Source: Octopus vulgaris (lineage: Eukaryota). From it: a stretch of 64,000 bases of DNA. Each line of letters opens with the position of its first letter. Position 1 is the stretch's first letter. The stretch spans positions 5,332,001 through 5,396,000 of the forward strand of contig OX597837.1 in NCBI GenBank assembly GCA_951406725.2, read 5' to 3'. The position numbers are program-made. Below, piece after piece: positions 17,357 through 18,802 of this stretch.

Positions 17357-18802
17357 CACGTGTCTGTCTGATTGTCTGCCTGTCTACCTATCTATCTATC
17401 TGTCGCTCCCTCATTACTTTGCCGCTTTGTATCTGTCTTGATTCTGTCTGTGTCATTGTCTGTCTGTTTGTTGCCTTGAATGTCATACTCGCTCACTTAC
17501 GCATGAACAACACATACGCACATATTCATTCATTCATTCATTCACTCAAATTTCTCATTCAGGTACTCACTACTTCAGCCTGTCTACGAGTATGTATGCA
17601 TGTACGTATGTATGTGTGTATGTATGTATGTATGTATGTATGTATGTATGTATGTATGTATGTATGTATGTATGTATGTATGTATGTATGTATGTATGTA
17701 TGTATGTATGTACGTATGTATGTATGTATGTATGTATGTATGTATGTACGTACGTACGTATGTATGTATGTATGTATGTATGTATGTGTGTGTATGTATG
17801 TATGTATGTACGTACGTATGTATGTATGTATGCATGTATGTATGTATGTATGTATGTATGTATGTATGTATGTATGTATGTATGTATGTATGCATGTATG
17901 TATGTATGTATGCATGTATGTATGTATGTATGTATGTATGTATGTACGTACGTACGTACGTATGTATGTATGTATGTATGTATGTGTGTGTGTATGTATG
18001 TATGTATGTACGTACGTATGTATGTATGTATGTATGTATGTATGAATGTATGTATGTATGTATGTATGTATGTATCCCCAAACAACTCTTTTATGGAGAG
18101 TTAGCCAAAGGAGAACGACCTCCACATAAACCAAAACAGAGGTATAAGGACTTGCTGAAGGCTTCCTTAAGAGATGCTTGCATCTCTCCTGACACATAGG
18201 AAGGCATAGCTATTGATCGTAGCAGGTGGAGAAGGATTGTGCATGAGGGGACAGCCACGTTTGAGAAATCTCGAGTTGCACATGAGAAAATAAGGAGAGA
18301 TGTCAGGAAGGGCATCGCATTTACACTTCCAGAAGGGAAGGGTCTTCCTTTGATTCTGACATGCAATGTCTGTGCAAGATCCCGCCTCAGTAAAGCTGGA
18401 CTCTTGAGACATCTTCGTAGTCATAAAACGAGACAGATGAGTGACAACCTGGCCACTGGTGGTGGTGTAACACACCATACTAATCATATCTGTCGGGCAT
18501 GTGGAAGAGAGTGTAATTCGGCAGGAGGACTTAAACGACATGCAAAGGTACATGAAGCCCAGTTACAACTACAGCCGGCTATTACCGGTAAAGGTTTCAG
18601 TTGCCGATTTTGTACAAGACATCGTAGATCTTTGGCTGGGATAAAAAGTCACATTCGATCACAGCACCAGTAACAGTTAAGCTTCGTGCAATGGCCATAC
18701 TCGATAACGAGAGGGCAGCCACAATGTATGTATGTGTGTATGTATGTATGTATGTATGTATGTATGTATGTATGTATGTATGTATGTATATATGTATATA
18801 AT

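What the first reader, a model, noticed from the sequence alone, without database searches (positions are those of the whole stretch)
18362..18673. RTE LINE ORF2 ending in three tandem C2H2 zinc fingers
Seen: after the RTE tail signature come three fingers (two CX2CX12HX3H, one CX2CX12HX4H). Each carries an S.(A/G)G(L/I)..H helix, and they are joined by long non-TGEKP linkers. Established: many RTE-clade ORF2 proteins end in a single such finger-like motif. Inference: the finger was triplicated within the element, which could alter nucleic-acid recognition or targeting. In a lineage known for C2H2 expansion, such LINE tails could also inflate or seed zinc-finger gene counts.
Basis: partly seen in the sequence, partly recalled or inferred. 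Interest (0 to 1): 0.7.

Follow-up and report, generated by a model that had tools for sequence, protein, structure and literature searches.

The report
Dead LINE tail with three fingers
This is the broken, roughly 650-base tail end of a jumping gene (probably an RTE-type LINE) whose protein ends in three weak zinc fingers; it is an ordinary remnant of a kind of octopus element that is already published.

Summary
Window 18362-18667 (+) encodes three Cys2-His2 motifs (C-X2-C-X12-H-X3/X3/X4-H). They are the only 3 matches to that pattern in all six frames of the 64-kb window. Pfam zf-C2H2_4 scores 32.6 bits against a cutoff of 27, with 3 stretches.

The fingers lie in one frame with a LINE ORF2 tail motif. 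A TAA stop, a 50-nt 3' UTR and an (ATGT)n tail follow.

The copy is dead. It is 5'-truncated at 18076, so it has no endonuclease or reverse transcriptase, and it has an in-frame TAG at 18197-18199.

RTE membership is likely but could not be tested, because the RT domain is missing. A published Octopus vulgaris RTE (RTE-2_OV, PMC9115989) has the same layout: EN, RT, a C2H2 finger, then a microsatellite right after the ORF. This copy is not that element: 0 of 12 of its primers match.

"Triplication within the element" is not shown. The fingers share only 27-31 of 63 nt.

The fingers are degenerate (16-20 bits each), widely spaced and very basic. That suggests backbone binding of RNA or DNA during target-primed reverse transcription, not sequence-reading.

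Low interest; new member of a known kind.

The parts
17590..18075 (.). Upstream (GTAT)n microsatellite that abuts the 5' break of the LINE fragment. It has the same unit and strand as the element's own 3' tail.
   Evidence: TRF: period 4, 122 copies, 93% matches; sequence read.
18076..18196 (+). 5'-truncated start of the LINE ORF2 tail: PKQLFYGELAKGERPPHKPKQRYKDLLKASLRDACISPDT. No endonuclease or RT sequence lies upstream.
   Evidence: Translation. Upstream 16800-17590 holds only low-complexity ORFs. Pfam finds nothing in these 40 aa.
18197..18199 (+). In-frame TAG stop that interrupts the tail motif.
   Evidence: the frames 17507-18199 and 18200-18673 are the same frame.
18200..18361 (+). Rest of the tail motif (EGIAIDRSRWRRIVHEG...) and a basic spacer before the fingers.
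18362..18424 (+). Finger 1, C-X2-C-X12-H-X3-H.
   Evidence: Alone it scores zf-C2H2_4 19.5 bits, E 0.0015, below the cutoff of 27.
18491..18553 (+). Finger 2, C-X2-C-X12-H-X3-H. It is the finger most like canonical C2H2.
   Evidence: Alone: zf-C2H2_4 20.3 bits, zf-C2H2 18.4 bits. It gives the best PDB matches (ZBTB17, E 1.4e-8 for the whole query). It is the only finger with strands in the AF2 models.
18602..18667 (+). Finger 3, C-X2-C-X12-H-X4-H.
   Evidence: Alone: zf-C2H2_4 16.1 bits; Zn_SUZ12 21.7 bits, below its cutoff of 28.
18671..18673 (+). TAA stop of ORF2.
18674..18723 (+). Short unique 3' UTR (50 nt). No fold better than shuffled sequence.
   Evidence: RNA fold of 18660-18740: z-score +0.53, and 144 of 200 shuffles fold at least as well.
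18724..18789 (+). (ATGT)n 3' tail of the element. It runs on into TA-rich simple sequence up to about 19146.
   Evidence: A run of 12 perfect ATGT units at 18740-18787. TRF row 18739-19146.

Best explanation
Window 18076-18789 is a dead, 5'-truncated insertion (about 650 bp plus tail) of a LINE, most likely of the RTE group.

Shown:
- It keeps only the last ~198 codons of the single large ORF.
- That stretch holds a LINE tail motif, an in-frame TAG, and then three widely spaced, degenerate, very basic C2H2 fingers.
- A stop codon, a 50-nt 3' UTR and an (ATGT)n tail follow.
- The fingers lie inside the retrotransposed unit, so they are part of the element's own protein.

Inferred:
- The parent family is a cephalopod RTE-type element related in layout to the published RTE-2_OV (EN, RT, C2H2 finger, then a microsatellite).
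- In an intact parent, the fingers would act in cis as a C-terminal nucleic-acid-binding module during target-primed reverse transcription. They would hold the 3' end of the element's RNA, or the nicked target DNA, mainly through backbone contacts.
- Reasons for that reading: the usual base-reading helix positions are Ser, Ala or Gly in all three fingers; the linkers are 22 and 16 residues; and the finger region has 19 K+R against 3 D+E.

At this locus the sequence does nothing: there is no 5' part, no start codon before finger 1, and a premature stop.
For: - Frame and anatomy.
- Only 3 pattern matches in the whole window, all here.
- Pfam zf-C2H2_4 32.6 bits against a cutoff of 27, 3 stretches.
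- PDB sequence search returns C2H2 fingers as its best hits (ZBTB17 1.4e-8, PRDM9 6.5e-5), plus a weak E~0.015 match to pyrroline-5-carboxylate reductase 1, and no LINE protein among the 60 of 81 hits listed.
- 1 stop in 198 codons against 11.6 expected; K+R 19 against D+E 3 in 107 aa.
- Microsatellites on both sides.
- Literature, passages only. [quoted passage not shown] PMC2887409 describes RTE 3' ends with simple repeats right after the stop codon, mostly as 3' partial copies. PMC3747384 reports that RTE-clade LINEs end in short repeats. PMC10294476 reports RTE-BovB 'greatly expanded in cephalopods'.
- Octopod origin of the window: a published O. vulgaris primer hits 7 SINE copies with 2-3 mismatches against 0 expected.
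- Recalled, not tested: the motif G.R..G.P..R(W/Y).D...WE..A.DR..WR is typical of RTE/BovB/Rex3 ORF ends.
Against: - The RT and endonuclease are absent, so clade membership rests on the tail motif (recalled), the 3' anatomy and the literature.
- CR1/L2-type LINEs also end in short repeats.
- It is not RTE-2_OV itself. 0 of 12 published primers match anywhere in the window with fewer than 4 mismatches, and none matches in the fragment. The primer at that element's ORF end should have matched if it were the same element.
Whether all family members carry three fingers is therefore unknown.
- Each finger alone is below Pfam's cutoff (19.5, 20.3 and 16.1 bits against 27). PF00096 for the whole tail is below its cutoff (21.2 against 25.2).
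- 0 of 3 fingers have the canonical aromatic residue four positions after the second Cys.
- AF2 models are of low confidence (mean pLDDT 42 and 48).
- The proposed function is by analogy only.
- The 3' UTR shows no significant RNA structure for a finger to recognise.
Confidence: 0.78

Rival explanations
1. The fragment is the tail of a LINE from another clade (for example CR1/L2-like or another group of the Jockey/RTE assemblage). That element would also carry C-terminal fingers and a microsatellite tail.
For: The RT domain is missing, so the clade is untested. Stringent-type LINEs of the CR1/L2 group also end in short repeats and are recognised through their 3' tails (PMC4176376; PMC3747384). 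The Atlas gave no named RT-bearing cluster for the pre-finger part.
Against: The tail motif resembles RTE/BovB/Rex3 ends (recalled, not tested). A published octopus RTE has exactly this layout. RTE-BovB is the LINE type reported as greatly expanded in cephalopods. The two other LINE fragments in the window, which carry zf-RVT, have no such tail.
Confidence: 0.15
2. The fingers are a piece of a host C2H2 gene, either captured by one LINE copy or merely adjacent to it, and are not a standing part of the family.
For: Only one copy could be examined. The host lineage is reported to have a very large C2H2 repertoire (PMC12988792).
Against: - There is one uninterrupted frame from the LINE motif to the stop, and the element's UTR and (ATGT)n tail come after the fingers.
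- The linkers of 22 and 16 aa and the Ser/Ala/Gly reading positions are unlike tandem poly-finger genes.
- There are only three fingers.
- A C2H2 finger is already reported in the ORF of an octopus RTE.
- The Atlas returns mollusc clusters of 84-203 aa with scores of 0.94-0.95 and 56-152 members. This fits a multi-copy repeat tail, but it is only a lead.
Confidence: 0.04
3. The tail has been co-opted as a small host zinc-finger protein or exon.
For: The frame is much more open than chance (1 stop in 198 codons against 11.6 expected).
Against: - There is no Met before finger 1; the only Met is residue 80 of 157.
- There is a premature TAG upstream.
- The fragment sits inside microsatellite on both sides.
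- No promoter, splice or expression evidence was available.
- An open frame is equally expected for a young insertion.
Confidence: 0.03

Closest known systems
RTE-2_OV of Octopus vulgaris, and the RTE consensus of O. bimaculoides (Petrosino et al. 2022, PMC9115989)
   Same: A single ORF that ends in a C2H2 zinc-finger region, with a microsatellite starting right after the ORF. The host is an octopod. The paper calls the finger 'relatively rare in RTE elements'.
   Different: It is not the same element: 0 of 12 RTE-2_OV primers match. The text I could read does not give the number of fingers in RTE-2_OV. The figure and the supplements were not visible. The window copy is a dead 3' fragment, whereas RTE-2_OV is a full 1109-aa ORF.
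RTE-BovB type LINEs and lepidopteran RTEs with microsatellite tails (Tay et al. 2010, PMC2887409; Martelossi et al. 2023, PMC10294476)
   Same: 3' partial copies predominate. A simple-sequence repeat follows almost directly after the stop codon. The type is abundant in cephalopods. The tail motif ...A.DR..WR... is shared (recalled).
   Different: The passages of these papers that I read describe no C-terminal C2H2 fingers: 'zinc' occurs 0 times in PMC2887409 and 0 times in PMC10294476.
C-terminal Cys/His modules of other LINE ORF2 proteins (the L1 ORF2p cysteine-rich domain, the R2 zinc knuckle). This comparison is recalled, not tested here.
   Same: A small zinc-binding module downstream of the RT, thought to help hold nucleic acid during target-primed reverse transcription.
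   Different: Those are single CCHC-type motifs. Here there are three C2H2-type motifs with long linkers. No sequence similarity to any solved LINE protein was found.
Tandem C2H2 poly-zinc-finger transcription factors (ZBTB17/Miz-1, PRDM9, Zif268)
   Same: The zinc-ligand spacing is the same, and these are the best sequence matches in the PDB.
   Different: There are no TGEKP linkers and no aromatic core residue. The base-reading positions hold small residues. There are only three fingers, and they sit at the end of a retrotransposon ORF.

Membership tests
C2H2 zinc finger (Pfam zf-C2H2_4 / zf-C2H2) | Ligand spacing C-X2-4-C-X12-H-X3-5-H | tested here: met
   3 of 3 motifs. These are the only 3 matches in the six-frame translation of the window.
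C2H2 zinc finger (Pfam zf-C2H2_4 / zf-C2H2) | Profile score at or above the curated cutoff | tested here: inconclusive
   For the whole tail, zf-C2H2_4 scores 32.6 against 27 (met), while zf-C2H2 PF00096 scores 21.2 against 25.2 (not met). Single fingers score 19.5, 20.3 and 16.1 bits against 27, so 0 of 3 pass alone.
C2H2 zinc finger (Pfam zf-C2H2_4 / zf-C2H2) | Hydrophobic core: an aromatic residue 4 positions after the second Cys and Leu/Ile 10 positions after it (definition recalled) | tested here: inconclusive
   Leu/Ile at +10 in 3 of 3 fingers. An aromatic at +4 in 0 of 3 (the residues are R, C, R).
C2H2 zinc finger (Pfam zf-C2H2_4 / zf-C2H2) | Beta-beta-alpha fold | tested here: inconclusive
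   AF2 without an alignment gave mean pLDDT 42 (157 aa) and 48 (110 aa). Helices fall where the three finger helices are expected, but strands appear only at finger 2. The models are too weak for a fold search, which I did not run.
Tandem poly-zinc-finger DNA-reading array | Short conserved TGEKP-type linkers between fingers, and many fingers | tested here: not met
   The linkers are 22 and 16 residues, and there are 3 fingers. The count of Wells et al. requires at least 5 fingers.
RTE clade of LINEs | The RT domain groups with RTE elements in a phylogeny | not testable with these tools
   The copy is truncated at 18076, so there is no RT in the fragment.
RTE clade of LINEs | N-terminal apurinic/apyrimidinic-type endonuclease in a single ORF | not testable with these tools
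   That part of the element is absent from this copy.
RTE clade of LINEs | Very short 3' UTR ending in a short tandem repeat directly after the ORF | tested here: met
   A 50-nt UTR followed by (ATGT)n. This matches the descriptions in PMC9115989, PMC2887409 and PMC3747384. The feature is not exclusive to RTE.
RTE clade of LINEs | ORF end motif ...G.R..G.P..R(W/Y).D....WE..A.DR..WR... | tested here: inconclusive
   The motif is present in the sequence. That it marks the RTE clade is my recollection. No profile or reference sequence was available to test it.
RTE-2_OV (the published O. vulgaris element itself) | Sequence identity, tested with the 12 published walking primers, including the one at the ORF end | tested here: not met
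   The best matches have 4-7 mismatches, lie elsewhere in the window, and none is in 18076-18723.

The most novel reading that the evidence does not exclude
The three-finger tail may be a cephalopod-specific elaboration that makes this LINE family home to its own microsatellite. The fingers would bind (TGTA)n/(ATGT)n DNA, or the matching RNA tail, so that new copies land in existing arrays and spread and lengthen this repeat across the genome. This copy fits that picture: it sits with about 490 bp of the same repeat, on the same strand, directly at its 5' break, and has its own tail at the 3' end. One copy proves nothing, and annealing of the RNA tail to a repeat target would give the same picture without any role for the fingers.
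Probability: 0.1. Interest if true: 0.55.

Novelty: new member of a known kind. Interest (0 to 1): 0.2.

Why it matters
It matters little on its own. This is one decayed 3' fragment of a LINE family whose general design (endonuclease, RT, C2H2 finger, microsatellite tail) is already published for octopus.

Three modest points are worth recording:
- This tail has three fingers, not one, and they look unsuited to reading DNA sequence. If that holds across the family, it would be a handle for asking how RTE-type elements recognise their RNA tail or target.
- Such tails match C2H2 profiles, so domain-based counts in cephalopod genomes should be checked for them. Pipelines that require five or more fingers are not affected.
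- LINE tails of this kind help explain the density of (ATGT)n arrays in this genome.

Tried and rejected
1. Other copies in the window. blastn (word size 9) and tblastn with the tail found only the fragment itself.
2. Relatives elsewhere. Finger counts in other family members, dN/dS and the RT phylogeny therefore stayed unchecked.
3. ESM Atlas.
   - The whole 157 aa gave one cluster of 203 aa (56 members, zf-C2H2 in 95%) and mollusc clusters of 119 and 84 aa at scores of 0.94-0.95. No ids or alignments were returned, and recognition was 2167, below the 2300 mark. This is a lead only.
   - Residues 1-60 against named clusters gave no usable hit.
4. Solved structures by sequence. The best matches were generic C2H2 proteins, with weaker hits (E about 0.015) to pyrroline-5-carboxylate reductase 1 and no LINE protein among the 60 of 81 hits listed.
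5. Structure prediction, run twice without an alignment. Both models were of low confidence. I did not run fold search, because the tool states that such models give meaningless matches.
6. A SINE partner. A SINE copy at 10315-10500 (-) also ends in the same 4-base repeat. Its 3' end is no more similar to the LINE 3' end than shuffled sequence: score 16 against a mean of 15.95, with 260 of 500 shuffles at least as good.
7. A 3' UTR stem-loop. None better than shuffles (z = +0.53). Rfam on 8000-28000 found no family.
8. Antisense ORFs 18170-18562 and 18094-18420. No Pfam family.
9. Literature. Nine searches found no paper stating the number of C-terminal fingers in an RTE element or describing a three-finger LINE tail. 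This library lacks most subscription journals. Malik and Eickbush 1998 was seen only as a reference entry. Albertin et al. 2015 is not held, so how that paper counted C2H2 genes stayed unchecked. Figure 3 and the supplements of PMC9115989, which may show the finger number or the sequence of RTE-2_OV, could not be seen.

Full report
**What is there.**
- Reading 14500-19500 and listing stop-to-stop frames under the standard code shows one frame on the + strand. It leaves a long (GTAT)n array at 18076 and runs to a TAA at 18671-18673.
- Its translation is PKQLFYGELAKGERPPHKPKQRYKDLLKASLRDACISPDT, then an in-frame TAG at 18197-18199, then 157 open codons.
- Those 157 codons begin EGIAIDRSRWRRIVHEG and contain three motifs. 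These are C-X2-C-X12-H-X3-H at nt 18362-18424, C-X2-C-X12-H-X3-H at 18491-18553 and C-X2-C-X12-H-X4-H at 18602-18667.

**Chance.**
- The pattern occurs 3 times in all six frames of the 64-kb window, and all 3 are here.
- Pfam gives zf-C2H2_4 at 32.6 bits (cutoff 27, E 9.4e-8, three stretches) for the 157-aa piece.
- The frame has 1 stop in 198 codons where base composition predicts 11.6.

**What the fragment is.**
- Upstream of 18076 there is only microsatellite: (GTAT)n at 17590-18075 with 122 units, and (TCTA)n at 17199-17401. The rest is non-coding-looking sequence.
- No endonuclease or reverse transcriptase precedes the tail. The 40 residues before the TAG match no Pfam family.
- After the stop come 50 nt of unique sequence (18674-18723) and then (ATGT)n from 18724 to about 18789. 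That repeat decays into TA-rich simple sequence up to about 19146.
- This is the anatomy of a 5'-truncated LINE insertion with a short 3' UTR and a simple-repeat tail.
- The fingers lie between the LINE tail motif and the element's own UTR and tail. They were therefore part of the RNA that was copied in, not a neighbouring host exon.
- The copy is dead. It is truncated, it has a premature stop, and the open frame has no Met before finger 1; the only Met is residue 80 of 157.
- Antisense ORFs over the region match nothing.

**Clade.**
- The RT domain is missing, so the defining test for RTE cannot be done on this copy.
- No relative could be fetched. The window has no second copy. The bacterial and archaeal contig scan confirmed none of 144 pattern matches.
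- Support for RTE is therefore indirect, in three parts:
  1. Petrosino et al. 2022 (PMC9115989; abstract, passages and sections 22, 26 and 27 read) describe RTE-2_OV of Octopus vulgaris. Their phylogeny places it in the RTE clade. [quoted passage not shown]
  2. Tay et al. 2010 and Ohshima 2013 describe RTE 3' ends with simple repeats right after the stop codon, mostly as 3' partial copies.
  3. Martelossi et al. 2023 report RTE-BovB as greatly expanded in cephalopods.
- The ORF-end motif resembles BovB and Rex3 ends as I recall them, but no call tested that.
- The window is from an octopod or a close relative. A published O. vulgaris primer matches 7 SINE copies in the window with 2-3 mismatches, against 0 expected.
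- The fragment is not RTE-2_OV itself. None of its 12 walking primers, including the one at the ORF end, matches the fragment. The best matches anywhere in the window have 4-7 mismatches.
- I put RTE at roughly three in four, with another microsatellite-tailed clade as the main rival.

**The fingers.**
- Aligned to each other (A1) they share both Cys, the first His, an Arg two residues after the second Cys, a Ser at +6 and a Gly at +9. Leu or Ile sits at +10.
- Pairwise they share 8-10 of 21 residues and 27-31 of 63 nt. TRF sees no tandem repeat in the fragment.
- A common origin is plausible from the shared Arg/Ser/Gly signature. There is no trace of a recent duplication, and one copy cannot show where or when a duplication happened.
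- Each finger alone is a weak C2H2 match (19.5, 20.3 and 16.1 bits against a cutoff of 27). None has the canonical aromatic core residue.
- The linkers are 22 and 16 residues.
- The positions that read bases in canonical fingers are Ser, Ala or Gly in all three.
- The 107-aa finger region has 19 Lys+Arg against 3 Asp+Glu.
- The best PDB sequence matches are generic fingers (ZBTB17, PRDM9, Zif268), and no LINE protein is among the hits listed.
- Two AF2 runs without an alignment gave mean pLDDT 42 and 48. Helices fall at the expected places, but strands appear only at finger 2. The fold is not settled, and I ran no fold search.

**How it most likely works.**
- In an intact parent element, I infer that the three fingers form a basic C-terminal nucleic-acid clamp used in cis during target-primed reverse transcription. 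This is by analogy with the Cys/His modules behind the RT of other LINEs (recalled).
- Their make-up argues against sequence reading of double-stranded DNA. It argues for backbone binding of the RNA 3' end or of the nicked target.
- I found no RNA structure in the UTR that they might recognise (z = +0.53).
- I found no SINE sharing the LINE's 3' end. A SINE at 10315-10500 (-) has the same repeat tail, but its 3' end is no more similar to the LINE's than shuffled sequence.
- The copy lies with the same repeat on both sides. That fits insertion into a pre-existing array through annealing of the RNA tail. It also leaves open a finger-directed preference for that repeat, which is the boldest reading the data allow, at about one in ten.

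- 'Inflating zinc-finger counts' does not apply to Wells et al. 2023, who require ORFs of at least 375 bp with at least five fingers. This ORF has three.
- Albertin et al. 2015 could not be read.
- 'Seeding' a gene has no support at this locus.

**Novelty.**
- The design is in print for octopus.
- None of the text I could read gives a finger count. Nine literature searches found no description of a three-finger RTE tail.
- From memory, multi-finger LINE tails with long linkers exist in other animals, but I could not test that.
- I file this as a new member of a known kind, of low interest.
- What would change that is a genome-wide census of copies, finger counts mapped on an RT tree, and binding assays.

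Noticed in passing
window 8478-9120 (+): Six head-to-tail units of about 107-110 bp, 84-93% identical to the core of a SINE-like repeat found elsewhere in the window. Four of the six are matched by a published O. vulgaris lncRNA primer with 2-3 mismatches. It looks like a short satellite built from a SINE core.
   Followed up: partly
window 10264-10500 (-); also 50168-50280 (-) and 50473-50494 (-): SINE-like copies. The one at 10315-10500 ends in the same 4-base repeat as the LINE fragment, 13 units at 10264-10315. Its 3' end is not similar to the LINE 3' end beyond chance.
   Followed up: yes
window 30741-33199 (+): A 730-aa open frame with RVT_1 (E 6.4e-33) and zf-RVT (24.6 bits, below the cutoff of 27.5). 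It is preceded by a long poly-Ile/Val low-complexity run and followed by a 95-aa frame. This is a different LINE type, without the C2H2 tail.
   Followed up: partly
window 60623-62508 (+): A LINE fragment in two frames: RVT_1 E 1.9e-10, then zf-RVT at 31.3 bits, above its cutoff. It is a different type from the finding.
   Followed up: partly
window 30262-30495 (+) and 36037-36267 (-): Two ORF fragments share the stretch NSLNGKKFNSLDDVKRYLDE(F/I)FAMKPPQFW(E/K)EGIFKLKER. It resembles the C-terminus of a mariner-type transposase (recalled). Pfam found nothing for the first.
   Followed up: partly
window 24050-24548, 47630-48145, 48545-48985 (+): Three copies of an unclassified repeat. Its translations share SERSSSQSSHDGRSPKRGPLLF...HREHRRMDECAS.LS.CVGSRGQET.RKSERK.ERKST.
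   Followed up: no
whole window: 66.6% A+T with no N. Microsatellites are very dense, for example (TCTA)n at 17199-17401, (GTAT)n at 17590-18075, and TA-rich sequence at 18739-19146. Six further runs of at least 6 units of the same 4-base repeat lie on the opposite strand elsewhere in the window, none next to a LINE tail.
   Followed up: partly
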